Source: Diplonema japonicum (Eukaryota > Protista > Euglenozoa: Diplonemea). From it: a stretch of DNA of 64,000 bases. The notes under the pieces were generated by a model. The model saw nothing but the letters and a program-made list of their open reading frames with translations, was not told the DNA's origin and did no database searches. Shown here piece by piece: positions 9,536 to 64,000 of this stretch. Position numbers and translations under genes: made by a program. Location: positions 393,703 to 457,702 of the forward strand of contig OZ025726.1 of assembly GCA_964019335.1 (NCBI GenBank), in the 5' to 3' direction. The first letter of the stretch is position 1, and every line of letters starts with the position of its first letter.

Positions 9536-9780
9536 CAGGTGTTGGTGGCGCCCTGCACAATCTACTTGACTACGGGGGCGCACCTCGGCCTAGCTTCTTC
9601 TGCATTCCACGTGTCCTTGTTGCGCGCGGTGTGCAGAGGCGCCTTGGGTAACCAAGATCCTACGCTCGTGCAGTTTGCTGCCTGTTCGTCACCCTGAGCA
9701 TGCAATACCGGTGATGACCGACAAACATCTGATGTACTTCTTTATATCTCCATGTTGTCCCCACCACCCGAGAAAAAACA
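9536..9780. repeat. Solitary diverged copy of the internal sequence of the hAT-like fold-back element at 48.2-50.1 kb
   Basis: Shares blocks such as gtaaccaagat..ctcgtgcagtttgctgcctgttc.tcaccctgagcat and acatctgatgtacttct with 49100-49370, and in inverted orientation with 49590-49880. Confidence 0.8.
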
Positions 9781-9839
9781 AACAAAAAAAAAAAAAAAAA
9801 AACAAAAGAAATAGAACCCAGAAGGGTCCTTGCAGCCAT

Positions 9840-46872: not shown

Positions 46873-48220
46873 CTAGTGTTTGATCCCTTCTAGTGCCTTA
46901 GGCCCGTCGTAGTATCTCATCAGCAGCTTGGGCGTGAAACCAACTAGCGAGTTGTTGAGGATGCAATGCGTTCGCATTTGCTCCTCTAGGATCGAGTGGG
47001 TGACCTTCAGGGACGCGAAGATCGGACGAGTGGAGTAACCAGTGATGGCATGGCTGTGGAGCCCTAGGGTGCATAGTGAGTGTACTGACTTCATAGTTTC
47101 TGCCGGAATCAGATGATTCCCCGTCCCTTTTAGATGGATCCTTTCTAAGACGCTGAGAATCCTGCCGAGCTTTCTCGCCCAGCGCACTATGTCTTCCCCA
47201 CCCATGTAGAGCCTTTCCGTTGCAATGAGGTCGACTGCTAGTTCCGCCTTCGAAACTTGCCCACCTTCCTCGCCCCATTTTAGGGCATTCAGCCAGTTGA
47301 GGACAAATGGGATTAGGCCTGGGAAGTATTTCTTCTGCAGCCCATGTTTGTGGTACCAGGGGAGAGGCTTCGGGGTTAAGAGGTTCCCCGGTCGGAATGG
47401 TCTATCCCAGAAATGCTGTTTCGATTCTCCTCGCTTTCTGTGGGTTGGTGATTGCCACCTCGTTGTGTAGGATGTTCGTCTTCATCTCGTCCACTCCTGT
47501 CTCGATTCCTTTGAAAGTGTCCCACTCTTCGGCGAGCTCACCCTGCAGTTTTTTTTTCAACCACACTCTGACCTCGTGTTTCAGGTGTGGCATGCCCCAT
47601 GGCAACTCTTTAATAAAGTCCTTCCATCTCGTCCCGATGTCCTGTAGCCATATTTCCACATTACCAAATGGCCCCTTCAAAAGCGATGGCGTTCCATCTC
47701 GCTCCTTTGTGTACTTGTAAGTTTCCCAGCCCAACACGAATAGGGACTTGTTCAACTGTCGTGTGCACAGGCGACCTAGGGTCGAAATGGCTTTATAGAC
47801 CACCGAGAGTAAGGGTCTAGGGTGTGTCCTTTGTAGGCAATCCCTAGCAGCACACTGGTGGAATGCATTGGGTTGCATGCACCCCAGATGCATGACATGA
47901 TCTGCTTCTTCAATTTCACCAGCCAAGAGTCTGGGATTGGGTTGAATAGGACACTGTAGAAGGTGGACGGTAGGATGTTCTCTGCAATGATCTGTACCTT
48001 GTGGTTGTGGTAAAGTCTCGTTGCTGTGAGGTGCTCAATTTCTGCAAGTGCCTTGTGGGCTCTCATGTTCTCTCTTCTACAAGGCTGGAAGTAGAACAGT
48101 ACCCCCAGGATCTGCAGTTTGCAGGATGTGTTGAAGGTCTCCCCATGTAGCAGTACATTGCCACAGCGGTTTCATTCCAAACGACTTAGTTTTCTTTGGG
48201 TGGATAGCCATCCCTGTGAG
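46873..48220 (-). pseudogene. Degenerate L1/Tx1-like LINE ORF2 C-terminal relic, truncated by the hAT-like insertion at 48221
   Basis: Frameshifted fragments TGMAIHPKKT (RT domain 6/7-like) and KVQIIAENILPSTFYSVLFNPIPDSWLVKLKKQIMSCIWG (thumb region typical of L1/Tx1). Confidence 0.55.
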
Positions 48221-50139
48221 CAGTGATGGGTGAATCCTAATTAGGACTAGACTGGACTGGACCAGACCAGACTGGATCTGGCATGAATTTCGACCCAATT
48301 ATGCTGGACTGACTGGACTGACTGGACTGGACTGGACTGGACTGGACTGAACCAGACAAGATACAACCACAACACCACATCCCCCCTTTTTTTTTTGCTG
48401 CAGAGTTCAAACATATAAACAGATGTCTACAAGAAAAGATGTTACACAGGTACTGAGAGACGACAACAATGAGAAACGAAGAAAAAATAAAAAAGAAAAA
48501 AAAAAAAAAAAAAAACCTTTATCTTCTTTTTCAGGTGGTGGGGATAACCAGTGTTGGTCCAGACCCTTGAGGGACTCAGGGGACTCCAAGGGACAGGACA
48601 GGAGTCCCCTGAAATTTTCAGGGGTCTGGAGGGGACTCAGGGGACTCAGGGGACTGGAGGGACTCAAGGGACTCAGGGGACTCAGGGGTCTGGAGGGGAC
48701 TCAGGGGACTCTTGGCAGTGATGGGTGAATCCTAATTAGGACTAGACCAGACTGGACCGGACCAGACTGGATCCGGCGTGAATTTCGACCCAATTATGCT
48801 GGACTGACCGGACTGACCAGACTGGACCAGACCAGACCGGACTGGACCAGACCGGACCAGACTGGACTGGACCAGACTGGACTGGACTGAACCGGACTGT
48901 ACAAGATACAACCACAACACCACATCCCCCCCCTTTTTTTGCTGCAGAGTTCAAACATATAAACAGATGTCTACAAGAAAAGATGTTACACAGGTACTGA
49001 GAGACGACAACAACAACAAAAACAACGAGAAACAAAGAAAAAAAAAATGGGGCTTTGATTGCAACACTAGGTGGTGTTAAGTGTGCAATGAAGCAAGAAC
49101 TACCTACTTGATTACAGGGGGCGCTCCTCAGCCGAGTTGTAGCTTCTTCTGCATTCCGCGTCATGTCCTTAATGCATGCGGTGTGCTCAACCCTAGCCGG
49201 GGCATCCCGGGTAACCAAGATTCTGCACTCGTGCAGTTTGCTGCCTGTTCATCACCCTGAGCATCTGCATTATGTTCTTCCACTCAGGCACTACTGGTGA
49301 TGACTGATGAGGTCAACAGCAAACAACACATCTGATGTACTTCTTATATTTCCATGTTATCCCCACCACCTTAATAAAAAAAAAAAAAAAAAAAGAAAAA
49401 GAAAAGAGACATTTAAGGGTACCTGTGGTATGTGGCAGGATGCCTGAAGAGTCTCAATCTATCTCTTGATCAAACCTTTCTGCTGTGGTGTGGCCTTCAG
49501 CCCCTCGTTCACCCTCCTCGGTACCTTAGGTATAAAACCCTCAACCGAGTTGGTAAAAAAAAAAAAAAAAAAAAACTTTTATCTTCTTTTTATGAAAATA
49601 TAAGAAAAACATCAGATGTGTTATTTGCTGTTGACCTCCTCATCGGTCATCACCGAGCAAACCACACGAGTGCAGAATCTTGGTTACCCAGGGCGCCCCG
49701 GCTAGGGTTGAGCTGATCCCCACACACATTAAGGACACGACACGGAGCACAGAAGAAGCTACAACTCAGCCACAGTGATTAAGGACATGATGCAGAACGC
49801 AGAAGAAGCTACAACTCGGCTGTGGTGCACCCCCTGTAATCAAGTAGACAGTTCTTGTGCAGGGCACTGCCAACACCAGCCTGATGGAGCTGTGCATGTC
49901 TGTGGTACAAAGAAGAACAAGAAGAAAAAAAAAAAAAAAAAGGAAAAAAAAAATCATTGTCCAAAAATATTTGAAAAAAAAGTGTTTGCAGGTGTGTCAA
50001 AAATTGCAGAAAATTTTCGAGTCCAGTCAGCCTGGTCAGTCTGGCCAATCTGGTCATCTGGCCAATCCAGTCAGTCTGGTCAGTCTGGTCAGTCTGGTAA
50101 ATTGGGTACACTGGACCAGACCAGATTCACCCATCACTG
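48221..50139. mobile_element. Non-autonomous hAT-like fold-back element with duplicated left end
   Basis: 15-bp TIR CAGTGATGGGTGAAT at 48221 and 48716, inverted copy ATTCACCCATCACTG at 50125-50139; (GACTG/GACCA)n subterminal arrays at both ends; internal inverted repeat (49100-49370 vs 49590-49880). No clean 8-bp TSD seen. Confidence 0.7.
48549..48715. repeat. CAGTGTTGG-ended MITE fragment with (GGGACTCAG)n 9-mer array
   Basis: Tandem ggggactca units at 48570-48710. Confidence 0.55.
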
Positions 50140-51987: not shown

Positions 51988-52699
51988 TGGTTACTATTAT
52001 TAACTATGACAATCAGGTGAAAAAGACAAAACATCGTAACAGCTCTCTTTTGATGCCGCAGTGGCCCTTCAGGATGGTTATGGTTGGTGCGTCAGGAAGC
52101 GGGAAGACAAACCTTGTGATGAATCTGCTGCTTGGGAAGGACATGCTCACTTATGACAAGCTTTATGTAGTCTCTTCACTTGATTAGGACAAGTATGTTG
52201 CACTCATAGAACACTTTGAGAAGTATGATGACAAGCTTGCAGAAGAGATTAGGAAGAGAGAAAGGTATTGAACAAGAACCCGAACTCACACCTACAGCTT
52301 ACTTTCACGACACGATCGATGAATTGGATATAAACACGTTTGACAAGAGCAAGCAGAACCTTGTGGTACTTGATGACATCATGTTAGATAAGAACCAAAG
52401 TGAATATATCAACCTCTTCTCTCGAGGTCGACACTTCAACGTGTCTGTAATCTACCTTTCACAAGCATACTTCCGTGTGCCAAAGACTATTCGTGATAAT
52501 AGTAGTTCTTTTATTCTTTTTTCAATGTCCCCTCGTGAAATAAACGAAATCCATAGTCGTCTCTGCACCGACTCACCGTTCAAAGTCAGAGTTTCAAGAC
52601 ATGTTCTTGAAGCTTGATCGCTATGGGTTCGTCTTCATAGATGATCAGTGTGTTCAGCCTGAGATGAGATATCGGAAGGGGTTTGGTGAGATCTTGTAG
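51987..52699 (+). pseudogene. A32/FtsK-like viral genome-packaging ATPase with premature stop and frameshifts
   Basis: PFRMVMVGASGSGKTNLV (Walker A), LVVLDD (Walker B), LFSRGRHFNVSVIYLSQAYFRVPKTIRDN (A32 signature), and YGFVFID...RYRKGF end; TAG at 52185-52187. Confidence 0.9.
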
Positions 52700-52721
52700 A
52701 GAGAGAGAAAGCAAGAGTTGC

Positions 52722-52790
52722 AAAAATGCGCACTTTTTGCGCACTTTTTCTGTCTCCCATAAAAACCTGAAGTGCGCAAAAAGTGCGCAA
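52722..52790. repeat. Palindromic element (TGCGCACTTTT)x2 ... (AAGTGCGCA)x2
   Basis: tgcgcactttttgcgcacttt is the reverse complement of aagtgcgcaaaaagtgcgca, with a ~20-nt spacer. Confidence 0.8.
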
Positions 52791-52873
52791 AGCAGGTTTC
52801 ACCAACCACATTTATTTTTACTTCTTCCTCACTTCATATTCTTTACAGTTCTCTTAATACACAAAACAGAAGA

Positions 52874-54298
52874 ATGGCTCGAAAAATTCTAGAAACGGTC
52901 ACAAGCTGGTGGAGAAAGCAGTCACCTGAAACCAAGAGCATCGTCAAGTGGGGTGGAAGTGTTGCAGGCAGTCTTTTCACATACGAAGTAAACAAATTTC
53001 TCCACGTCCGTAGCCTTGTGAGTCCGGATATGCTGGCATCCACCCCAGAGCTTAAGCACGTTCGCAAAGACGTTGACACAACTGTACAGAGTTTGAAAGA
53101 CTACCGCAAGAACTTTAAGCGTGAAGAGAGCGAAGCCTTTGTCATACTTGTGGGTCCGAAGGCTGCTGGAAAAACCACTTCGATCAAGCGTGCTTTTGGT
53201 GGTTCGAAAGTGTTGTTTTTGGAGACAACGTTGCAAGATCAAGATGCGACCGCCAACCTCAAAACCGCTATCGAGAACGCATTTCGGCCCTACTTTTCTT
53301 TTCTGTATAACGAAACGGCAAGGTCTATTCTGAGATATGCCGACTGGATGTCCCGCTCCAGGATATTCGGGACTGGGGAACCTCTGGTCATATACTGGTC
53401 GCTGTCCGCTAAAAAGGGTGCTGATGAGATGCACAGTCTCCGAACGATCGCTGAGGTTGCTGCAACTAGTGCACGACAGCTCTCGTTCGACCATCCTGGT
53501 GGGAACATTGCTGTCGTCATTGAGACCTCAAACCCAACGGTATTGATACCTTTTCTTTAACTTTTACTTTTTTTTATCCCACAGCTTGGTGCGTTAATCC
53601 CAACAGTCCACCAGACATGCGAAACCCTGTTCCTTGACCACATGTCCTACACCGACTTTGTGAAGGCCTTCGATGCAGACCCCTTTGCCAAGAATTTCAC
53701 AGCGAGGCTTGGTGGAAAAGACAAGTATAAGGACCACCTGAAGGAGTATTACTCCTGCTTCAGCGGGAACCTCCGTGGGTTGAAGCTAGACTTCCTGAAG
53801 CCTTGTATGTCACACAATGTGAAAACCATAAAAATACATTCACAGTGATGGCCGTAAAGGATGCAAAGGATTTCCAGAAGGAGTTTGCAGGGCGTATGTC
53901 AAAAAACAAACAAATGAATAATGTTAATTATTACAGAGGTTGAGGAAGAGAACAAGAGTCTCAAAAAACGCTTCAGGCATGCTGGGTTGACATCTGGCCA
54001 AGAAGAGCTTTGCTTGGAGATAGCCAAACAGGGACCTGTTGGATTGAAGTACAAGGATACCGACGCTGTGCTAGACATGGTTGATAGCATCAGAGAGAAG
54101 AAAGAAGCACTTGGCCTCCTCAGGGTACAGCAGAGAAACACGATCCGCCTGCACTACATGGCGCATGTGCGCTACCTGTTACGGAGGATGTACGACGAAG
54201 AGAAGAAAGAGTGGAAGGACAAGACACCTGAGGAGACAATGGCAGCTTTGGAAGAGCATGGCTGGCTACCCAAGACAGTCAAGGCAGGGAGTGCATGA
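52874..54298 (+). CDS. Intron-containing P-loop NTPase (AAA/STAND-like); introns 53540-53584, 53805-53845, 53894-53936
   Basis: Walker A VILVGPKAAGKTT; three GT-AG introns of 41-45 nt join the track ORFs into one uninterrupted frame. Confidence 0.8.
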
Positions 54299-54596
54299 TC
54301 CTTGGTGTTTTTTTTTTTTTTTTTTCGTTCTTCCCCCCCTTGAAAACCTTCTGATAGCTCAGCACACACACACCTCTTTATTTTTTATTCTGAAACCTTT
54401 TTTCTCACCCCTTGCAAAAACACTGGTGTGAGCTTGGCACCCCTGGGTTTGACAAGCTTCTTCTTTTCTTCTTCTTCTTCTACTTTTCCTCTTAGAGCTG
54501 CAGCATCTGAAATCTATGCAGCATCCTTTTTATTGAATGTCTTTTTTTATTTTTATTTCACTCTTCAGAAATTACTTCACACACTGGGGGGCCCAT

Positions 54597-54660
54597 TACT
54601 TCACGCTAAATCTCATTACTTCACGGTGAAATAATGGCCTGTTTTCCGTGAAGTAATAGG
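54597..54660. repeat. Short inverted-repeat MITE-like fragment
   Basis: cattacttcacg x2 opposed by ccgtgaagtaat. Confidence 0.5.
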
Positions 54661-55097
54661 GGGTTTCTGGTAAATAATATGCCTTGGTAGGCCAATTTTT
54701 GCCTCGGTTCGGTTCCCAGTGGGGCTACTTTTTCCTCTCAGTTTGCTAATTTCCCCCAGGTTCAGTTCAATTGGCCAACTTTTGCCTCGGCTCAGTTCCA
54801 AGTTGGACTACTTTTTCCTCCCAATTTGCCCACTTTTGGCTAGGCCTTGTTCCCAGTGTCTGTGGGTAACTCTTCTGTGGGTAAGGGTAACTTAGTCAGC
54901 TTACCCAAGCTCCCCAAAAGACTTCAAAATACCGAAGCAGCAGAAAAAAAGGAGCCAGCGGCCGCGCTAGGTATGGGAAGGCCTGATTAGAGATGGTGAC
55001 AGTGGCAATGCCAGCGACAGCGGCAGCCACCTAATAAAGAAAACATACAGGGAATAGGGATACCAAAATATATAAATACACATTAAACCAATGTGCA

Positions 55098-55694
55098 TCA
55101 TTCTCTCACCTTCTCATAAGCAATCTTTGCTGCAAACACAGGTATGCTTGCTAAATTAGTTAACTTATCTACAGGGTTTGTGTTCAATGGGTTCATGACG
55201 TTGACAGCATTGTCCTTCATAAGATAAAGGTCTGCCTTTTGTTTCATTTTCAACAACTCCTTTTTAGATTTAGCAACACGTCCTGCGTGGTGGTAACGTA
55301 GATCATGGTACATTGCTGCTTCATCCATAGTACTCTTTGGCGGTGTTTTTATTGCTTTTGAGTTTACTTTCTCCCCTTCCCATGCTCTTTTAGCGTTCGC
55401 ATCCAGGTTATTTATTCTCTCCTCCAACTTAGTTCCCGGACCTGCAAACGCTGCTTTTTCAACCCCTTTTGAGGTGACGACTGGTAAGTGCAACTCTGTG
55501 TTTGGGAACGTGTCTGTGATAAACTTCTGAAGGTCTCCACCTTTCTTTCTTTTCATTGGTATAAAGGTAAACTACTTTGTTCCACACGACTTGCAGATGC
55601 TCTTTATTGCTCGTCGCTTGTTTTTAGTTTCCACTTCCTCCCTATTTTCTGATAAAGTTCTTGCTCTACATTTAACACAATATGAAGTGCTCAT
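55098..55694 (-). pseudogene. Zn-ribbon (CxxC...CxxC) fused to parvovirus-type phospholipase A2 (adintovirus PLA2X-like), one in-frame TAG at 55572-55574
   Basis: MSTSYCVKCRART...TKNKRRAIKSICKSCGTK*FTFIPMKRKKGG|DL..., FAGPGTKL (Ca loop), DEAAMYHDLRY (catalytic HD), KAD. Confidence 0.85.
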
Positions 55695-56142
55695 CTTTTA
55701 TTACGAATCTCACCAATTAGTTTCTCTTCATTCTCTTTTTGATTTATTGAGAAGACCTTGTGAACAAAATCATAAAACCCATCCACAGGACCCTTTGAAC
55801 AGTAATATGTGTAGTACATGAAGTAGCAGCACCAGTGACCACAGAGTTTACTCATAGGGTGTTGAAGTGGGTATGTGTTGGCAAGGACATTGAGAGGAAT
55901 CACCTCCTCAAGAACCGGGGTAGCAAGGCTGTCAAAGTAGAGGTTCTGGGTTTTGTTCATGTAGAGGCAGACCCAATGTGTTCCTGGTCATTAGAATCGT
56001 CAAAGTTGATAACGTAGAATCCTGTTTGCAAACCATGAGGGAGTTCATCTCGCATGAAGACACCATGTAGGGGGATCTTATAGAAGCTACACCACTCAAC
56101 AATGTCAGAATCATATAACCCGTCTATCTCATGCACCATCAT
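55691..56142 (-). pseudogene. Adenain-like (adenovirus/Polinton) cysteine maturation protease with one frameshift
   Basis: GVFMRDELP, VINFDDSNDQ[G]THWVCLY (His restored by a frameshift near 55980), YFDS, Q...CGHWCCYF; its stop overlaps the next ATG (ATGA). Confidence 0.9.
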
Positions 56143-56144
56143 TT

Positions 56145-56434
56145 TTAAAGAGAACGAGGTAGAGTCTTACCTGGAATGTACAATCCTTTTCCAAACATCT
56201 TCTGTCCTAACTTCTTCCCTCCATGAGCCGCTAGAGCACTCAGACCTGCAACAATAGGTGCCAGGAATTGCAAGAAGCCACCCTGCTTCCTCATGTGCAA
56301 GAGTTGTGTTTTTGAGAGCTTCAACATCACACTAGTCTTTGAATTTACTGCTTTCATCAACTTGTTCTTTTGAGTCATTGTGATAGCTAGCTTATCACTC
56401 CCTGCCATTGAGGGATCAATCTTAAGGGTAACAC
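56145..56434 (-). pseudogene. 5'-truncated Polinton/adenovirus pX-like core protein
   Basis: VTLKID...GSDKLAITMTQKNKLMKA...LKLSKTQL...KQGG|FLQFLAPIVAGLSALA: a GG cleavage-like site followed by an amphipathic GGFL peptide. The 5' end is replaced by the insertion starting at 56435. Confidence 0.7.
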
Positions 56435-56507
56435 GGGGGACAAAATCCAACTCACAGCCTTCACGTGGCGTCCCCTGTAAGTAAGCTTCGGCTGAAACTA
56501 ATGTGAG
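56435..56507 (+). ncRNA. HDV-like self-cleaving ribozyme
   Basis: P1 GGGGGAC(56435-41)/GTCCCCT(56470-76) with G.U at the cleavage site; P2 CTCACA(56451-56)/TGTGAG(56502-07); P3 GCC/GGC closing the 7-nt L3 TTCACGT; P4 AGC-TTCG-GCT; J4/2 CTAA with putative catalytic C56498. Confidence 0.88.
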
Positions 56508-56714
56508 AGGTACCCAAGCTGTGGTGTGTGTGTGTGTGTGTGCGAACCTTGCCGGGGCTAGATTTAGAGCGGGCCCTGTTACCCATTCGCCCTGTCCTTG
56601 GTAAGCCTTGATGGTCGGAGGGGGTAAGGTAGCTGGTGTGTGCGTGGTTCCCCCCTGTGCTGTGTATCCGCTTTCGTTGTGACCGTTGCTGAATACGAAG
56701 TAGAAAAAAAAAAA
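56435..56714 (+). mobile_element. Short ribozyme-headed retroposon (SINE/SIDER-like) with (GT)n tract and A-tail
   Basis: Begins exactly at the ribozyme cleavage site, interrupts the pX-like gene, and ends in an A11 run at 56704-56714. No TSD identified. Confidence 0.6.
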
Positions 56715-56864
56715 GTAAACAAAACAAAAAAAAGAAAGCAACAACAAAAAAATGAAAAGAGGTTTTTTTTTAATTCAAAGTATCTTTTTGTTTTTGATGT
56801 TGGCAGGCACTAAAACAACCTTCATACGCTAACCACATCAAAATCAAAATCTATATCTTGGACT

Positions 56865-56911
56865 AAAAAAAAACCAACGATTCTAAAAAAAAACCAACGA
56901 TTCTAAAAAAA
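56865..56911 (+). repeat. Tandem reiteration of the SL 5' end (20-bp unit A7-AACCAACGATTCT)
   Basis: aaaaaaaaaccaacgattct occurs three times in exact tandem; the third copy continues into the full SL exon. Confidence 0.95.
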
Positions 56912-56950
56912 AACCAACGATTCTAAAGCTACAGTTTCTGTACTTTATTG
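56912..56950 (+). ncRNA. Complete 39-nt spliced-leader (mini-exon) sequence, diplonemid type
   Basis: AACCAACGATTCTAAAGCTACAGTTTCTGTACTTTATTG: 39 nt, with the conserved euglenozoan CAGTTTCTGTACTTTATTG 3' half and the AACCAACGAT 5' end recalled for Diplonema. Followed by GTCGTT rather than GTAT, and no obvious Sm site, so probably not an intact SL RNA gene. Confidence 0.92.
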
Positions 56951-57118: not shown

Positions 57119-58194
57119 ATGGATCCAAGACGACTCGCAGGAGGAGGTGACCGCAGCCGCAGCCCGCAGGAGCAAGCCCGCAGCCCGCAGTGCACGGCAC
57201 CGAGACCCACCCAACCAGGCAATCTGGTTGGGCAGTATGAATCCCCACCCCCTAGATCCCCCCACCCCCCTTTAGAAAAAAAAAATAATAAAAAAAAAAA
57301 TCACAAGTAGAGACCGCGGTTTTGACCGCCACAACCAAGGGAGCAGCAGCCCCTGCTACAGCCACGGCCGCCCCGGCCGCAAGCACGACTGCTGCAGCAG
57401 CCCCAGCCGCACTGAACGCCGCAGCCGACCCTGCCGCCCCAAACGCCGCAGCCGCCCCTGCCGCAGCCACGACCGACACAACCACGATCGCCGCAGCCGC
57501 CCCTGCCGCCTTGAACGCTGCAGCCGCCCCTGCCGCAACTGAGACAGCCGCAGCCGCCCCTGCCGCAAGCCCGACCTCCGCAGCCGACCCTGCCATAGTT
57601 GAAGAGGAAAAAAAAAAGAAGAAAAAGGGGGAAGGGTGTATACTGAAAGATGGTGAGCACCCCCCCGGGTTGAAGACAGGTGCTGCCCCCGCCTTCCCAG
57701 AAGCTCTGCTGTCCGGGAAGTGGGAGGCCCTGTCAGGGAACACGGGGAGGGAGACGCTCCAGCATGGGCACCGGTGGGAGGGGACGGACGCCGAGGTGCG
57801 CCCCACCACCGGCATCCCAGGGGAGGCAAAGGGGTGGGTGAGGGAGGTGGCCGCCGCCGCAGGGCTCAAGGTGGTCCCCAACCAGGTACTTGTGAATAAG
57901 TACAGACCTGGTTGTGGGATTGCCGCCCACAAGGACGACGCAAGACTGGGACCGGTCGTCCTAGTCTTGTCGTACGGGGCTGAGACCACAATGGTCATGA
58001 GGAAGGGGGACAGGGTAGCGAGGTACCTGGTGCCCCCCTTCTCATGGGCACTGTTGGAAGGCGAAGCGAGACACCAGTGGACACACCACATCCCGTCAGG
58101 GGTGTCCACTGGTGTCAGGGTGTCGATCACCCTGCGTGCGGTTGGCCCCGAGCTCACCCACATACCCCCCCAGGAAGACCCACCCCTGGGCTAA
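57119..58194 (+). CDS. AlkB-family 2OG-Fe(II) dioxygenase with Ala/Pro-rich linker (probable start 57119 via a frameshift in the A-run at 57290-57300)
   Basis: PNQVLVNKYRPGCGIAAHKD (HxD), LSYG, LEGEARHQWTHHI (distal H), RVSITLR (RxSxTxR): a complete metal/2OG ligand set. Confidence 0.88.
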
Positions 58195-59873
58195 CAAACG
58201 AACCCCCCCCTTTTTTTTTAGAACCCTCCACGGAGGTAAAAAACAGACCCTCTTCGGAGGAAAATGGAGAGAGAGGGGAAGAGGCAGCGCTCCCAAAAGA
58301 GGGTAGTGTTCCTCCCCCCCATTTGTCCCCCCCTTTTTCATTTTTAGAGCCCTCTTTGGAGGAACCCTCCACGGAAAACAGACCCTCTTCGGAGGAAAAT
58401 AGAGAGAGAGGGGAAGAGGTGGCACCCCCGAGAGAGGGTAGTGTTCCTCCCCCCCATTTGTCCCCCCCTTTTTCATTTTTAGAGCCCTCCCCAGAGGGAC
58501 CCTCCACGGAGGTGAAAAACAGACCCTCTTCGGAGGAAAAAAAGGCAGAGGGAGAGACAGCACGCCCGAGAGAAGGTAGTGCTCCTCCCTCTCTGCCCCA
58601 TTTTTTCTGGACCCTCTACGGAGGTGTACACCCTGGTCCCCAAGGGCCGGGGGCTTTTTTTGAGGGTGGAAGGGAAAGAAAAAAAAAAACAAACAAGGAG
58701 GAACCTTTTTTCTTTTCAAACAACCAGGGGGACCCAGCACCCGCCCCCACCGCCTGCCAAGGTGTGGTTGGGGCGGAGGCTGCGAGCGACGTGAGAGCAC
58801 CACTGCACACCCTTGTGAGAAGACAGAAAAGAGCCCCCTGGATTGCCATGGGTGGCAGGGAACCTAAGCCAGCGCCCAAGAGGAAGAAGAACAGGAGGAG
58901 GCACAGGAGCGAAACGGCCCTTCAGAGGCGTCGGGAGAAGAGGACCAAGGCGAGGGAGGCTGCCAGACAGGAGAAGAAAAGGCACCGTCGTGCGAGGAAA
59001 GAAGGGAGGAGGAGGGCCCGCAGAGAGGAACACGAGGCCGCCCTGGAACAGAAGCCAGATGACCCTGCAATGGGGCTGAAGCTGACCGAGGTGGGAACGC
59101 CTGGAGCCCAACCCCTGGCACCCAGAATCCCGGCACCTGGGGCTGCAACCGGTGCAAGGAGGCACCGCAGACGGACGGGACACAGCAAGGAAGGGATGAG
59201 ATGGGAGCACCTGGGGGTGTGGGCCTGGGTCGCCCTGTTCTCCCTCTTGCTGATCCCAGGGGTGAGGCAGGTGCTGGGGGCGGGCATCGGGATGGCCCCC
59301 TCCTTCCTGCATGCTGCAGTGTTGTGGAAGAGGCCGGGGAGCGACAGGAGGACCACCCGCAGGTCAAGGGTACAGGTGGGGCCCCGAGGGGATGAATGGT
59401 CCGCCGGGGAGCTCGCTTGGCTAGCGGTAGGAGGCACCCTGGTGGGAAGCACTTCAGTTTGGATAGGGGGGCTGATGTCGCTCTGGGCCATGTCGGAAGT
59501 GATGGTGGGGAAAGCTGGTGCTGGCCCGACCCAGAGATTCGGACCGGTAAAGCTGAAGAAGACAAGACGCGGATCGAGAGGTCACTACCTGCCGGTGTAC
59601 TTGGGCCCGCCTAGAAGCTCAAGACGCAGAAAAAAGAAGGTGGACGCCAAGCAAGCGGCGAAGGAACGAGCTGAGACGGAGGATAAGCTCTTTCAGGCCG
59701 AACACCTGGACCCCTTTGCGGACTTGACGCTGGCAGGGGACGCGTTGCAAGGAGGTGGTGACCCTCCCCCCATGGATTTGGATGATGAGCACATGGAGGC
59801 GCAGAAGGAGGGGGAAAAAGAAGGATCAGACAAACATCAATGCCGGATGGAAGCAAACTGGTGTTTTACATGA
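58044..59873 (+). CDS. Retroelement middle ORF: repeats, Arg-rich basic tract, two hydrophobic segments
   Basis: 609-codon open frame between AlkB and the RT-thumb ORF, overlapping both; probably parts of one frameshifted polyprotein. Confidence 0.55.
   Translation: MGTVGRRSETPVDTPHPVRGVHWCQGVDHPACGWPRAHPHTPPGRPTPGLTNEPPPFFLEPSTEVKNRPSSEENGERGEEAALPKEGSVPPPHLSPPFSFLEPSLEEPSTENRPSSEENRERGEEVAPPREGSVPPPHLSPPFSFLEPSPEGPSTEVKNRPSSEEKKAEGETARPREGSAPPSLPHFFWTLYGGVHPGPQGPGAFFEGGRERKKKTNKEEPFFFSNNQGDPAPAPTACQGVVGAEAASDVRAPLHTLVRRQKRAPWIAMGGREPKPAPKRKKNRRRHRSETALQRRREKRTKAREAARQEKKRHRRARKEGRRRARREEHEAALEQKPDDPAMGLKLTEVGTPGAQPLAPRIPAPGAATGARRHRRRTGHSKEGMRWEHLGVWAWVALFSLLLIPGVRQVLGAGIGMAPSFLHAAVLWKRPGSDRRTTRRSRVQVGPRGDEWSAGELAWLAVGGTLVGSTSVWIGGLMSLWAMSEVMVGKAGAGPTQRFGPVKLKKTRRGSRGHYLPVYLGPPRSSRRRKKKVDAKQAAKERAETEDKLFQAEHLDPFADLTLAGDALQGGGDPPPMDLDDEHMEAQKEGEKEGSDKHQCRMEANWCFT
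58215..58625 (+). repeat. Three-plus tandem ~135-141-bp repeats within the retroelement
   Basis: cagaccctcttcggaggaaaa at 58244, 58379 and 58520; gagggtagtgttcctccccc recurs. Confidence 0.9.
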
Positions 59874-62800
59874 GAGTGGTCCCAGACTCGCATGTGGGAG
59901 GGGTCATGCACAGGTTCGACGAGATGGTGCGGAAGACGATGTCGAAGGTGTGCGGCATGCAGTTCGAGAACGGGTCGAAAGAATGGCAGCAGGCGAAACT
60001 GTCCGTAAAAGTCGGTGGGCTTGGGATGAGGAGCTGCCAGGAGCACCTGCGCGCGGCCAACATGGCTTCGGCGTCGACGATGAAGCTGTGCAAGGAGCTG
60101 GATCCCAAATACGAACATGGGCTGGAAGGGGGTGTATGGGGGAGCTGGCTCGAGTGGTTCAACAGGACGAAGGGCGGCATGCAGATTACACCCGACATGG
60201 TGGCCAAGGCCCCCCACATCTGCAGCCAGAGGTGGCTCTCTAGGGTGCTTGATGAGAAGGCGCTGGAGGACCTCTTGGCGAAAGCAGATGCACGCTCGAG
60301 AGCGAGGTTGATGTCGGAGTCAATGCACTATGCGGGAGCGTGGTTGACGGCGACGCCTGACTTCTACAACCAGCTGTCGGACAACGAGTTTGGGGCTCTG
60401 ATCAAGTGGTGGTTGGGGGCTCCGGTCTACAAGCAGGGTGAGAGCTGCCACGACCCGAGGTGCAAGACTGAGGGGATGGACGTATGGGGTGACCATGCCC
60501 AGGGATGCGGCAACGCCAGGATTGCGAGGCACGACCGGGTGAAGGAGACCATCCACAGACACTGTCAGTGGGCCGGGGTGAGCGCAACGATGGAGAAGAC
60601 GGGGCTGATCCCGGGGTCGTCCCAGCGCCCGGCGGACGTGTTCTTCCCAGGTGGGGTGGGGGGTTCCCGCCCAATGGCTATGGACGTGGTCATCGTGCAC
60701 CCGAGGAACGAGTCTTGTGTCAACCAGGCGGCGAAGACTGCGGGGTACGCAGCGGCGAAGGCGGAACACTACAAGCGCCAGAAGTATGAGGCGGAGCTCG
60801 CCAAGACACGCGTGGCCTTTGTACCTTTCGCGATGGAGACCTTTGGGGGGTTCGGGGAGGCAGCAGTCTACCTCACGAAGAAACTGTCCAGGAGCATAGC
60901 TGCGCGGGCTCACGGGGACAGAGTCTCGATACACAGGCGTGTGGTCCAAGAGGTGTCAACGGCCATGATGAGATCGATAGCAGGGGCGCTGTTAGTCAAA
61001 GGGCCTGTACAGTTGGATCCAGGGCCCCCGGTACCGGACGGCGAAGAGGAAAAAAAGGACAACGAGGAAGCGAACAACGAACCCAACACTGAATCCAACA
61101 CTGACCTCACAGAGGACTCCTTCGGCAATGAAAAAACCACCGAAGCTGAGGAGTCGTCCGAGAGGGAAGTGAAGGGACAGGGAGGCGGACCCCCAATCAC
61201 GGTGGCCCACCAGCTGGATGCCCTTCTGGAGCAGACGAAGAAGGACCTGGACGCCCGAATGCAGCAGCAGCGAAAGGCGGAACCGGTGGAGGGTGGAACA
61301 CAAGGGAAAGCGGGAGCAGGACTCGAAGCAGCCTCGCCGGGAGGAGAAGACACGGAGATGGTCGGAACAGGATCCAGCGAGAGGGCTGGGCAGGGAGGGG
61401 AGCTTGACCCGAAGGCCCAGGAAGATGGGAAGAGACAAGGGGCGACTGACGCTGCGGTGAACCAGACCTTGGACCAGTGTCCTAAGGGGGATACGGAGGC
61501 CCAGAGGGACTCGAACAAGGGGGACCAGAGTGCGACAACTGCTACGAGGAAGATGACCGTGAGCGAATTCTGTAGGGAACAAGCTGCGAAGAGACAGGGC
61601 GGTGGGAGGACTCTGAAGCCGCAGGCGGATGACGCCCCCGAAGGGACCAAAGAGGGCGGGAACGCACCGAGCGGAGGCAGCCAGTCGGGGCCTGACACAC
61701 CTAGGGGTGGGATCCAGACGCCGGAGGGAGATCAGCTGATGGGAGTCGGGGCACCGGAAAGGGAACAGCAGGTGGAAGTAGGGGGAGACTTCGTTCAGCT
61801 TGACCCGATTGATGTGGTGATGGGCATCCCAATTCCGAGAGCGATGGTGCCACTGAGGGCGAGGCCGGGGGACCGACTGCTCAAGTTCATCATCCAGTTC
61901 GAGGGCCGGGTGGAGATCATCCTTGAAGAAGGAACGGACCCTGGAAGGGAGAGGACTGAGGAGATGCTTCTTGCGAAGGCCGAGTCGCTGGGTGTTCCAC
62001 TGGAGGTGGCTATGGCTGGCCAGATTGGTATCGCTGGACTTGGATACATGATGGTAAAGCAGTACTTCGCAAGCTTGGAAGGTGGGTCGGACGGAGAGCG
62101 CCGCAGCCGCATTGTGGGTTGTGAGGTGCAGAAGTCGGAAACATACCGCGAGTTCGAGTTCCCGAGGACGGTCCAGGATTTCCAGATCACGTACGCGTGT
62201 GGGTGTTCGGCGGTGCAACCTGTTCGTTTCAAGGGTGGCGTGCTCAAGGGGACTCTGGAAACGGCATGGGGGGTGGTCAAGTTGCAGACCCGGGGGTGCA
62301 GACACCACCCGACACTGGGGAAGGAAGGGGTAGTGGGCATTGCGGCGGGAGCCGGCGCTACCAAGGTGACACTACGTGAGTTCTTGGAGAGGTGCGACGC
62401 AAGGATAAGGGCCCCAGTGGGAAAGGTCAAGGACCTGATCAAAGTGAAGGCGTGGGTGAGGGATGGAAGGAAGGTCACCCTCGACGTCTACGAGGGGAGG
62501 GGGCCCTGCGAGAAGGAGACGAGGCGCACTGTCCAGGACCATCTGCGGAAGATGGGTGTTGAAGAGGTCGACCTGCAGTCAGCGGTGGTGACGGTCCCGG
62601 GGTTGTTCGAGGACGTCTCCTTTGAGAGGTACCTTGGGCTGTTGGCCCGGAAGAAGGAGGAAGACAGGGAGAGGCGGCCTGAGGTGGTTGCCACGGACCT
62701 CCCCACCCTGGAAGAGCTGAAGTGGAGCAAGAAGGACAAGAAGCGGGCCCGGGCCCGATCGGCCAGTACTGACTCGGATTGTGTGGAGGGTGGCTACATC

Positions 62801-63082
62801 TATCTGAAGGGTACGGGGGCGGATGGCACCGTGGTCGAAGCCAACATATGCAGGGGTGAGCTCAAGGGGATGACCGGGCCCCAGTTCAAGTTCTTGGCGG
62901 AGCACAGGTTGATGGAAGAGCTGGGGAGCGACGACCTGGTGCGGGACACGGTCAAGGTGCGCAACAAGGAGAACTGGGCCCCGGTGAACAGTGCGGTGGC
63001 TTGGCTGCAGCTCGAGTCGGGGAGGGCACGGGTGGGGCCCATACCCCACAAGAAGAGGTCCAAAGGCTCGCTGGCCAGATAG
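59840..63082 (+). CDS. CRE-clade RT thumb / CCHC zinc knuckle / restriction-like endonuclease plus ~690-aa C-terminal extension; RT catalytic core absent
   Basis: KLVFYMR..P, WQQAKLSVKVGGLG, AGAWLTATP, CHDPRC...DVWGDHAQGC, RHD, RPAD, DVVIVHP, AEHYKRQKY, FVPFAMETFG; no QGDPLGP or YxDD anywhere upstream. Confidence 0.88.
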   Translation: MPDGSKLVFYMRVVPDSHVGGVMHRFDEMVRKTMSKVCGMQFENGSKEWQQAKLSVKVGGLGMRSCQEHLRAANMASASTMKLCKELDPKYEHGLEGGVWGSWLEWFNRTKGGMQITPDMVAKAPHICSQRWLSRVLDEKALEDLLAKADARSRARLMSESMHYAGAWLTATPDFYNQLSDNEFGALIKWWLGAPVYKQGESCHDPRCKTEGMDVWGDHAQGCGNARIARHDRVKETIHRHCQWAGVSATMEKTGLIPGSSQRPADVFFPGGVGGSRPMAMDVVIVHPRNESCVNQAAKTAGYAAAKAEHYKRQKYEAELAKTRVAFVPFAMETFGGFGEAAVYLTKKLSRSIAARAHGDRVSIHRRVVQEVSTAMMRSIAGALLVKGPVQLDPGPPVPDGEEEKKDNEEANNEPNTESNTDLTEDSFGNEKTTEAEESSEREVKGQGGGPPITVAHQLDALLEQTKKDLDARMQQQRKAEPVEGGTQGKAGAGLEAASPGGEDTEMVGTGSSERAGQGGELDPKAQEDGKRQGATDAAVNQTLDQCPKGDTEAQRDSNKGDQSATTATRKMTVSEFCREQAAKRQGGGRTLKPQADDAPEGTKEGGNAPSGGSQSGPDTPRGGIQTPEGDQLMGVGAPEREQQVEVGGDFVQLDPIDVVMGIPIPRAMVPLRARPGDRLLKFIIQFEGRVEIILEEGTDPGRERTEEMLLAKAESLGVPLEVAMAGQIGIAGLGYMMVKQYFASLEGGSDGERRSRIVGCEVQKSETYREFEFPRTVQDFQITYACGCSAVQPVRFKGGVLKGTLETAWGVVKLQTRGCRHHPTLGKEGVVGIAAGAGATKVTLREFLERCDARIRAPVGKVKDLIKVKAWVRDGRKVTLDVYEGRGPCEKETRRTVQDHLRKMGVEEVDLQSAVVTVPGLFEDVSFERYLGLLARKKEEDRERRPEVVATDLPTLEELKWSKKDKKRARARSASTDSDCVEGGYIYLKGTGADGTVVEANICRGELKGMTGPQFKFLAEHRLMEELGSDDLVRDTVKVRNKENWAPVNSAVAWLQLESGRARVGPIPHKKRSKGSLAR

Positions 63083-63717
63083 GCCAGCGGGGGTGTGGGG
63101 GGCTGTTCTCCCCCGCCATAGGAAGATGTGAAACTTTTTTTTTTTTTCTGAGAAAAAAAAAAAAGGGAAAAATAAAAGAATAGGGAACAGGTGCTACAAC
63201 GGCCAGGCTAGATAGAACCACTTAGATTTTTTTTTTTTTTTTCCTTTTTTTTTTTCTTTTTGTTTTTCCTTTTTTTTTTTTTTTTTTTTATTTTTCTGTT
63301 TTTCTTTTTCTTTTTCTTTTTGAAGTGGAACCATCTCGGTCGACGTTTTTTTTTTTCTTTTTTCTTTTGTGGTGATGTGTTTTTCCTGTTTTTGATTTTC
63401 TTCTTCCCCCGCTCTATGCTTTTTCGCATGGACATTGGCCACTCTGCCCCTTTCCCCTTTTTTGATTCTCCCTCTTTCCCCCTCCTAAATTTTACCCCCT
63501 GCCCCACTCATTCCTCCCTAGTATGTTTTTGAATTTGCCTCTTCTTCTTTTAAGCCTTTTTTGAGATTTTTATTTTTGAATTTTTATCATTTGGAGTTGC
63601 TTCTTCTTCTTCCCCTCTCCCTCCCATAAAGAAAAAGAGAAACCCATGCCTTCCTCCCAGGTTGGAACTTGATTGTCTGTTTTGGAATATTTTTATTTTC
63701 TCTTAAGATTTATCGTG

Positions 63718-64000
63718 CCCGCAAACCCGCAAACCCGCAAACCCGCAAACCCGCAAACCCGCAAACCCGCAAACCCGCAAACCCGCAAACCCGCAAACCC
63801 GCAAACCCGCAAACCCGCAAACCCGCAAACCCGCAAACCCGCAAACCCGCAAACCCGCAAACCCGCAAACCCGCAAACCCGCAAACCCGCAAACCCGCAA
63901 ACCCGCAAACCCGCAAACCCGCAAACCCGCAAACCCGCAAACCCGCAAACCCGCAAACCCGCAAACCCGCAAACCCGCAAACCCGCAAACCCGCAAACCC
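63718..64000. repeat. Perfect (CCCGCAAA)n tandem array, ~35 units, running off the window
   Basis: Directly visible 8-bp period. Confidence 0.97.

What the first reader, a model, noticed from the sequence alone, without database searches (positions are those of the whole stretch)
56435..56714. Canonical HDV-like ribozyme marks the 5' end of an insertion into the viral pX gene
Seen: P1, P2, P3 and P4 of the nested double pseudoknot pair cleanly (7-bp P1 with G.U at +1, 6-bp P2, 3-bp P3, cUUCGg P4; P1.1 is only a single pair), with a CTAA J4/2. The predicted cleavage site coincides with the point where the pX-like reading frame stops looking viral. Known: HDV-like ribozymes define the 5' ends of R2, RTE and trypanosomatid ingi/L1Tc/SIDER retroposons. 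Inference: a ~280-bp diplonemid ribozyme-SINE, or the true 5' end of a larger composite (ribozyme - SL - AlkB - RLE) element.
Basis: partly seen in the sequence, partly recalled or inferred. Interest (0 to 1): 0.8.

Follow-up and report, generated by a model that had tools for sequence, protein, structure and literature searches.

The report
Ribozyme-headed retroposon splitting a protist provirus
A jumping-gene copy in a marine protist (likely a diplonemid) begins exactly with an RNA fold predicted to cut itself free from longer transcripts and has landed inside a gene of an integrated DNA virus; it is longer than first thought and likely separate from the large retroelement beside it, a familiar design in a new lineage.

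Summary
The fold is real. 56435-56507 has every helix and core base of an HDV/CPEB3-type ribozyme. It is the only descriptor hit in the window, and 0 of 3052 shuffles give one. Rfam scores stay below gathering level.

The boundary is real too. A profile of 78 pX-like homologs starts matching at 56432 and lacks about 27 N-terminal residues. Contigs from public runs put other flanks before 56435, or carry the pX gene on past 56434.

The inference needs correcting. One contig has a different 5' flank and still matches through 56873. It and a contig from another study then leave the window in the same letters. So the unit is at least 439 bp and probably over 600, although a short A-tailed form may also exist. 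The SL-AlkB-RLE neighbour is a separate element: its copies start at the SL with other flanks, and the join has about single-copy cover.

Verdict: a ribozyme-headed retroposon of the SIDE/RIME/NARTc kind, new for diplonemids in my searches. Cleavage, copy number, TSD and partner LINE are untested.

The parts
56435..56507 (+). HDV/CPEB3-type ribozyme fold; predicted cut between 56434 and 56435; predicted catalytic C56498
56435..56873 (+). Ribozyme-headed retroposon copy, as far as it runs in this allele (other copies continue past 56873)
   Evidence: X9 contig 20 matches 56435-56873 with another 5' flank; X5 contig 18 matches 56753-56873 and runs on for 173 other letters
56509..56521 (+). 13-mer just after P2, 12 of 13 identical to the inferred SL exon end/intron start
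   Evidence: read by eye against loose ends behind 56952; chance arithmetic; post hoc
56520..56543 (+). (GT)n microsatellite inside the element
   Evidence: sequence
56704..56759 (+). A-rich tract; possible 3' end of a short form, internal in the long form
56761..56875 (+). Long imperfect hairpin whose right arm ends at the A-run where the SL repeats join
   Evidence: -34.1 kcal/mol, z -6.8, 0 of 200 shuffles as stable
56863..56927 (+). 20-bp unit (A-run plus SL nt 1-13) in 3.2 perfect copies: the join between the two elements
56912..56950 (+). Complete 39-nt euglenozoan spliced-leader exon heading the neighbouring element
   Evidence: 2 letters differ from consensus 'Euglenozoa 14' in PMC3795323; its assignment to Diplonema is recalled
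57292..58194 (+). Neighbour element: AlkB-like 2OG-Fe(II) oxygenase ORF
   Evidence: PF13532 E=1.6e-14
58221..58589 (+). Neighbour element: 135-bp tandem repeat, 2.7 copies
59789..63082 (+). Neighbour element: thumb/CCHC/RLE part of a CRE-like ORF; the RT domain is missing (break at 59852/59853)
   Evidence: X5 and X9 contigs run on in other letters on both sides of 59852/3
63718..64000 (+). (CCCGCAAA)n array at the neighbour's 3' side, running to the window end
56145..56434 (-). Target: remnant of a pX-like gene of a Polinton/adintovirus-like provirus, lacking about 27 N-terminal codons
   Evidence: (PF05829 E=0.031, weak)
55098..56142 (-). Further proviral genes downstream of pX: an adenain-like protease in two frames (55694-56142) and a PLA2-like ORF (55098-55571)
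   Evidence: PF08398 E=0.00068; PF00770 E=0.17, weak

Best explanation
56435-56507 folds like an HDV/CPEB3-type ribozyme and is the exact 5' end of a mobile element found behind several unrelated flanks; the ribozyme likely cuts the element's RNA out of read-through transcripts, and a LINE's proteins likely copy that RNA into new sites, here the pX-like gene of an integrated DNA virus. The element runs at least to 56873 and, in other copies, beyond. In this allele it ends at an internal A-run, where an unrelated SL-headed AlkB/RLE retroelement has been joined in what is likely a one-off event. Inferred route: the neighbour's reverse transcriptase reached the SL 5' end, re-annealed twice to the AAA at SL nt 14-16 (giving the 3.2 x 20-bp stutter), then paired with the A-run of the ribozyme element, either in its RNA (template jump) or in genomic DNA (nested insertion). 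Shown: the fold, the 5' boundary, other flanks, the extent past 56714, and independent starts of the neighbour. Inferred: cleavage, retrotransposition, the partner LINE, and how the join arose.
For: Fold. Boundary from the protein side: all 78 homologs have 20 or more residues N-terminal of the break (median 27), and an N-terminal-only profile finds no match to the right of the insertion. Boundary from the DNA side: X12 contig 9 covers 56029-56434 and continues in 255+ letters unlike the window (an uninterrupted relative, inferred). X9 contig 20 has 255+ other letters before 56435. Two X1 contigs (median 150 other letters) join at 56432, seven X1 contigs have short other letters before 56435, and one X1 contig joins 57345 to 56435. 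Extent: X9 contig 20 and X5 contig 18 leave the window at 56873 in the same 30 letters. Independence of the neighbour: loose ends at 56905, 56907, 56909 and 56912, and joints 57834>56913, 60020>56914 and 62898>56913. Bin 56875-56899 has depth 1.9k in X1 (viral contigs 1.3-2.3k), 23 in X5, and 0 in X9 and X12. Precedent: HDV-like ribozymes head R2 and its SIDEs, L1Tc/ingi and RTE elements, and R2 jumps templates in vivo (PMC3414825, PMC6765202, PMC5786205, passages).
Against: No cleavage assay. Rfam scores are below threshold. A competing pairing can hide C56498, and the local flank can extend P1 over P1.1, which lowers L1TcRz activity (PMC3185411, passages). Covariation could not be counted. 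No TSD was found in the window, and neither the element's continuation nor the pX N-terminus reappears to the right. X1 may be the window's source run. Its seven 56435 contigs carry only about 8 other letters, and X5 contigs 13 and 14 have 27 and 26 letters on their short side, under the 31-letter bar. No listed contig bridges 56873|56874 with 31 letters on each side, so the join itself is not proven outside the assembly. Contig depth is not a copy number. X1 depth drops about 15-20-fold after 56700, which favours a commoner short form.
Confidence: 0.65

Rival explanations
1. The family proper is a ~280-bp ribozyme SINE ending in the A-tract at 56704-56714. The stretch 56715-56873 and what follows is flanking DNA carried along (3' transduction) by one sub-lineage that includes this copy.
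For: Summed X1 depth is 130-600k over most of 56450-56699 and 11-30k over 56750-56874. The A-tract looks like a tail. NARTc/RIME-type short forms are known (PMC5786205, passages).
Against: In X5 the contig depths along the unit are similar (107, 84, 91, 71), and X9's copy is the long form. Copies with apparently different 5' flanks share the 3' extension. Depth sums in X1 are inflated by fragmentation. No flank after 56714 was visible, because rows in that repeat were skipped.
Confidence: 0.2
2. The ribozyme is the true head of a composite ribozyme-SL-AlkB-RT-RLE retrotransposon family.
For: The parts are collinear and on one strand. At coarse scale, X1 depth rises about 100-fold at 56405 and stays high to 63148.
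Against: At fine scale the joining bin falls to about single-copy level in X1 and X5 and to 0 in X9 and X12, which both hold the neighbour's body. Neighbour copies start at the SL with other flanks. X5 and X9 copies of the ribozyme element continue elsewhere. None of the six ribozyme-bearing clades listed in PMC5786205 is CRE.
Confidence: 0.07
3. The fold is inherited but no longer cuts in these copies. The precise 5' end comes from an internal promoter starting at +1, as Pr77 also provides for L1Tc.
For: Weak P4, and competing pairings at C56498 and P1.1. Several trypanosomatid SIDER ribozymes with plausible folds were inactive (PMC5814959, passages).
Against: All core positions are intact. 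Copies are nearly identical between runs labelled as different organisms (2 other letters and 1 gap in 438), so there has been little time for decay.
Confidence: 0.08

Closest known systems
NARTc/RIME/SIDER elements with the L1TcRz (Pr77) head in trypanosomatids (PMC3185411, PMC4035085, PMC5814959; passages, and section 9 of PMC4035085)
   Same: Euglenozoan host with SL trans-splicing; a ~75-nt HDV-like fold at the exact 5' end of a non-coding retroposon; single-pair P1.1 open to P1 extension by the flank.
   Different: PMC4035085 says trypanosomatid ribozymes differ from HDV/R2 ones in the orientation of P1 G-C pairs. This one has the canonical G-rich 5' strand with G.U at +1 and matches the CPEB3 and drz-agam-1 models. 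The Pr77 sequence was not aligned, and no ingi-type partner was identified.
R2 SIDEs and R2/R1 hybrid SIDEs of Drosophila (PMC3414825, abstract and passages)
   Same: A ribozyme head releases a ~500-bp non-coding unit from a co-transcript; template jumps add foreign RNA to a LINE's 5' end.
   Different: Not confined to rDNA: at least several unrelated flanks here. No matching LINE 3' end has been found.
CPEB3 ribozyme (RF00622) and drz-agam-1 (RF01787)
   Same: Same L3 UUCACGU, G-rich P1 and one-pair P1.1 as the CPEB3 model; same J1/2 start and CUAA J4/2 as the drz-agam-1 model.
   Different: Scores are below gathering thresholds and P4 is shorter. That drz-agam-1 sits in RTE elements is recalled, not from a call.
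CRE-clade RLE retrotransposons (SLACS/CZAR/CRE1; PMC12278014, PMC5814959, passages), for the neighbour only
   Same: CCHC plus RLE motif, an internal tandem repeat and association with SL sequence.
   Different: The neighbour carries the whole SL exon at its head, is not followed by SL sequence, carries AlkB, abuts an 8-bp repeat array and lacks RT in this copy.

Membership tests
HDV-like ribozymes | Nested double pseudoknot P1, P2, P3, P1.1, P4 | tested here: met
   P1.1 is one pair plus U.U; P4 has 3 Watson-Crick pairs
HDV-like ribozymes | G.U at +1, conserved L3, catalytic C in J4/2 followed by N-R-A | tested here: met
   G56435.U56476, L3 56460-66, C56498-U-A-A
HDV-like ribozymes | Reaches a curated Rfam family threshold | tested here: not met
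   23.2 of 35, 21.8 of 37 and 19.6 of 44 bits; the models are lineage-specific
HDV-like ribozymes | Covariation among copies | tested here: inconclusive
   One X1 loose end implies three changes in the P1 3' strand, but its partner strand is not shown; X9 contig 21 has 5 unlisted differences over 56447-56507; 0 of 12 metagenome pattern hits were ribozymes
HDV-like ribozymes | Mg2+-dependent self-cleavage leaving a 5'-OH end | not testable with these tools
   needs an in vitro assay
Ribozyme-headed non-autonomous LINE derivatives (SIDE/RIME/NARTc) | Ribozyme at the exact 5' end of copies with different upstream flanks | tested here: met
   window, X9 contig 20, two X1 contigs at 56432, X1 joint from 57345, seven short X1 ends
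Ribozyme-headed non-autonomous LINE derivatives (SIDE/RIME/NARTc) | No protein-coding capacity | tested here: inconclusive
   No + strand ORF of 100 aa or more within 56435-56873; the unseen continuation could lead into a LINE ORF
Ribozyme-headed non-autonomous LINE derivatives (SIDE/RIME/NARTc) | 3' end shared with an autonomous LINE | not testable with these tools
   No genome is held; against the window, neighbour included, only A-rich matches were seen in the printed part of the list
Ribozyme-headed non-autonomous LINE derivatives (SIDE/RIME/NARTc) | Poly(A) tail and target-site duplication | tested here: inconclusive
   No repeat of the left flank at any candidate 3' end; the true 3' end is not in the window
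Pol III SINE with a tRNA-derived head | tRNA-like head | tested here: not met
   ARAGORN found 0 genes in the window; the head is the ribozyme
ingi/L1Tc clade (Pr77 hallmark) | Pr77 sequence hallmark | not tested
   No Pr77 sequence was on hand to align
SL-gene-targeted CRE elements (neighbour) | Inserted within an SL gene, with SL remainder after the 3' end | tested here: not met
   Only one SL 3' half in the window, at the head; the 3' side is an 8-bp array
SL-gene-targeted CRE elements (neighbour) | RT followed by CCHC and RLE | tested here: inconclusive
   CCHC/RLE align with 6 of 6 RT-bearing homologs; RT is deleted in this copy

The most novel reading that the evidence does not exclude
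The element mimics the SL RNA. Directly after the ribozyme sits a 13-mer with 12 of 13 letters identical to the inferred SL exon end/intron start, so the self-cleaved ~75-nt ribozyme head could act as a trans-splicing donor and be spliced onto host acceptors as an uncapped, structured leader. Its integrase-like step also favours 5'-CAN at the junction (5 of 5 flank rows shown). The join to the SL-headed element would be a captured in vivo template jump that gives a CRE-like element a ribozyme head.
Probability: 0.05. Interest if true: 0.8.

Novelty: new member of a known kind. Interest (0 to 1): 0.33.

Why it matters
It extends ribozyme-defined retroposon 5' ends from trypanosomatids to their diplonemid sister group, with a ribozyme of the canonical CPEB3/drz-agam type rather than an evident Pr77 type. 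My paper searches found no report of this (supplements of PMC10161547). It gives a compact natural ribozyme that is easy to assay, and a junction that may record reverse-transcriptase stutter at an SL 5' end. The design itself is well known, so the surprise is modest.

Tried and rejected
No whole genome is held, so there was no genome-wide BLAST, copy count or TSD survey.

Pattern scans: 0 hits in viral contigs and 0 in metagenome contigs with the longer pattern. The looser pattern gave 12 hits; none of the 12 has a P1 5' strand and none has a ribozyme Rfam match, so I treat them as chance. The pX protein found no related viral locus (6 candidates, none confirmed).

The look-up of sequencing runs: no RNA holder listed, so nothing is said on expression. 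Cover was 0 at 63149-63400 in all four runs and is not interpreted. 474 and 58 loose-end rows were not shown.

Rejected: that pX resumes after 56714, after 56873 or after the neighbour (the profile's positive control was held-in). Rejected: that the element's continuation reappears in the window (4 matches at 3 mismatches against 0.6 expected, 3 of them the UUCG-hairpin motif of the 135-bp repeat). Rejected: a tRNA-derived head. 56509-56704 has no notable structure (z +0.8 to +1.6).

I first read the neighbour as an SL-gene-targeted SLACS-type element and dropped that, because no SL follows it. Ruminski 2011 (PMC3308841) is not held, and the drz-Agam search gave 0 papers; I rely on reviews that cite it. 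Earlier-finding look-ups by sequence, nearby place and relatives were empty.

Full report
Setting. The window is eukaryotic. Its Pfam-labelled host genes in 9.8-44.8 kb all lie on the minus strand. A 39-nt spliced-leader exon at 56912-56950 differs by two letters from a euglenozoan SL consensus printed in PMC3795323 (passage). That this consensus is the Diplonema one is recalled; earlier notes on this genome also call it a diplonemid (unchecked). Left of the finding lie broken Polinton/adintovirus-like genes: an A32 ATPase, a PLA2-like ORF, an adenain-like protease in two frames and a pX-like gene (the last two hits are weak). No whole genome is held.

The ribozyme. P1 is 56435-41/56470-76 with G.U at +1; P2 is 56451-56/56502-07; P3 is 56457-59/56467-69; L3 is UUCACGU; P1.1 is one C-G pair plus U.U; a three-pair stem closes UUCG; J4/2 is CUAA with C56498. 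A descriptor for this architecture hits only 56435 in 64 kb and none of 3052 shuffled windows; it was written after I had seen the site. Three Rfam HDV-like models match the same place, all below gathering score (CPEB3 E=0.001, drz-agam-1 0.069, F. prausnitzii 0.34). As a further control, 12 metagenome matches to the P3-L3-P1' core all lacked a P1 5' strand. Against activity: P4 is weak, the minimum-energy fold pairs C56498, and the viral bases at -2/-1 extend P1 over the P1.1 bases with probability 0.82-0.99 in a pseudoknot-free model. PMC3185411 (passages) reports that such extension lowers L1TcRz cleavage. Cleavage is predicted, not shown.

The 5' boundary. P0001 aligns to the pX-like frame from its residue 27 at 56432, with 65% identity. 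A profile of 78 homologs (78 of 82 hits; four over 320 aa left out) matches from position 29 of 141 at 56432. All 78 have at least 20 residues before that point, and an N-terminal profile finds nothing to the right of the insertion. I laid contigs of 4 of the 20 listed runs, from four studies. X12 contig 9 covers 56029-56434 and continues in 255+ unrelated letters; X5 contig 14 does the same with 26 letters. Both read as uninterrupted relatives of the viral gene (inferred). X9 contig 20 starts matching at 56435 behind 255+ other letters. Two X1 contigs join at 56432, seven have short other letters before 56435, and one joins 57345, inside the AlkB element, to 56435. The predicted cut site is therefore the element's 5' end at several loci. 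X1 may be the source run, and its seven short ends and X5 contigs 13 and 14 fall under the 31-letter bar. X9, X12 and the two long X1 ends pass it.

The 3' extent. X9 contig 20 matches 56435-56873 with two other letters and one gap, straight through the A-tract at 56704-56759. It and X5 contig 18 leave the window at 56873 in the same 30 letters, for 53 and 173 letters. The unit is therefore at least 439 bp, and about 610 or more in X5 if its contigs form one path. X5 contig depths along it are similar (107, 84, 91, 71, against about 33 for the two junction contigs), which hints at a small, young family there. In X1, summed depth falls about 15-20-fold after 56700, which hints at a commoner short form. 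The tool warns that these depths are not copy numbers, and rows in the A-tract were skipped, so this stays open. No TSD was found, and the continuation does not reappear in the window.

The neighbour. From 56912 runs an SL-headed element with an AlkB ORF, a 135-bp repeat and a CCHC/RLE region aligning with six RT-bearing proteins. This copy has lost its RT at 59852/3 and abuts a (CCCGCAAA)n array. Its copies begin at 56905-56914 behind other flanks in all four runs, though some of those rows are probably the SL gene itself. The joining bin 56875-56899 has depth 1.9k in X1 (viral contigs 1.3-2.3k; neighbouring bins 11-30k and 290k or more), 23 in X5, and 0 in X9 and X12, which both hold the neighbour's body. 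An earlier unchecked note (e1-10630253) describes this family elsewhere in the genome as an AlkB-bearing element targeting an 8-base repeat. That moved me off an SLACS-type reading; the array here and the repeat unit in joint 60020>56914 fit it. The composite is therefore most likely a single-locus chimera. No listed contig bridges 56873|56874 with 31 letters on each side, so an assembly join is not excluded.

Mechanism. Shown: the fold, the exact 5' end, multiple flanks, extent beyond 280 bp and an independent neighbour. Inferred from R2, L1Tc and RTE precedent (PMC6765202, PMC5786205, PMC3414825, PMC5814959; passages): polycistronic read-through transcribes the element, the ribozyme releases a 5'-OH RNA starting at G56435, and an unidentified LINE reverse-transcribes it into new sites. 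The join is a perfect 20-bp unit of A-run plus SL nt 1-13 in 3.2 copies, and each unit ends where the SL has AAA at nt 14-16. This fits a cDNA ending in T's that re-annealed there twice and then paired with the element's A-run at 56865-73. That pairing could be on RNA (template jump, as seen for R2 in PMC3414825) or on DNA (nested insertion). The window cannot separate the two, because neither the element's continuation nor the pX N-terminus appears before the array.

Comparison and novelty. It works like NARTc/RIME/SIDER and R2 SIDEs. Membership of the ingi clade was not tested, and the ribozyme looks like the CPEB3/drz-agam type. Other unchecked notes report CPEB3-like heads on mini-Vingi elements in other genomes, a lead for the partner. 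Searches for diplonemid plus ribozyme (7 of 8 listed, one opened), for HDV-like ribozyme with Euglenozoa and Diplonema (none of 15 listed out of 129 holds the first term) and for diplonemid SL retrotransposons found no report. Nor did the text or the 7 supplements of PMC10161547. Most subscription papers, Ruminski 2011, Repbase and bioRxiv supplements were out of reach.

Verdict: observation confirmed, interpretation partly supported; a new member of a known kind, interest 0.33.

Noticed in passing
window 56432-56434 and flanks in runs X1, X5, X9: All 5 upstream-flank rows shown for the ribozyme have CA at -3/-2 (CAC twice, CAG, CAA, CAT). That is about 2.5e-5 by chance for four further flanks, but it is post hoc, one row is a consensus of 7 short ends, and many rows were not shown. 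Possible target preference.
   Followed up: partly
window 56509-56521: 12 of 13 match to the inferred SL exon end/intron start, directly after P2; about 2.6e-4 over 439 sites with uniform bases, post hoc.
   Followed up: partly
window 56470-56476 and 56912 (loose ends): A variant P1 3' strand implied by an X1 loose end is exactly complementary to the 7 letters that lie just upstream of the SL in the presumed SL gene. Probably coincidence; untested.
   Followed up: no
window 56447-56507 (X9 contig 21): A related ribozyme core (5 differences) is followed by a different sequence, so a second family may use the same head.
   Followed up: no
window 56761-56875: Strong imperfect hairpin (z -6.8) inside the element, ending at the A-run where the SL stutter joins; function unknown.
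   Followed up: partly
window 52000-56434: Polinton/adintovirus-like module (A32 ATPase, PLA2-like, adenain-like, pX-like) in a euglenozoan genome. PMC8502044 (passages) reports adintovirus-like virion genes as restricted to animals and their unicellular relatives. Genes are frameshifted and the rest of the provirus is not in the window.
   Followed up: partly
window 59852-59853: Internal deletion removing the RT domain of the SL-headed AlkB/RLE element; X5 and X9 contigs carry other sequence on both sides.
   Followed up: partly
window 63718-64000: (CCCGCAAA)n, C-rich on the + strand and so not a normal right-hand telomere. One unit also lies between two head-to-tail neighbour copies in an X1 joint (60020>56914).
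   Followed up: partly
window 48220-49047 and 49094-49857: Two ~300-bp direct repeats with (CTGGA)n microsatellites and A-tails, and a ~760-bp long inverted repeat (80-90% arms) with a diverged partial copy at 9562-9802; other small mobile elements left of the provirus.
   Followed up: no
window 9840-44771: Host genes (MLH1, DnaJ, VPS9, ERV/thioredoxin, ABC transporter, PPR, beta-lactamase-like) all lie on the minus strand, as in a polycistronic unit; 294-4223 holds a diverged ~132-bp repeat array.
   Followed up: no
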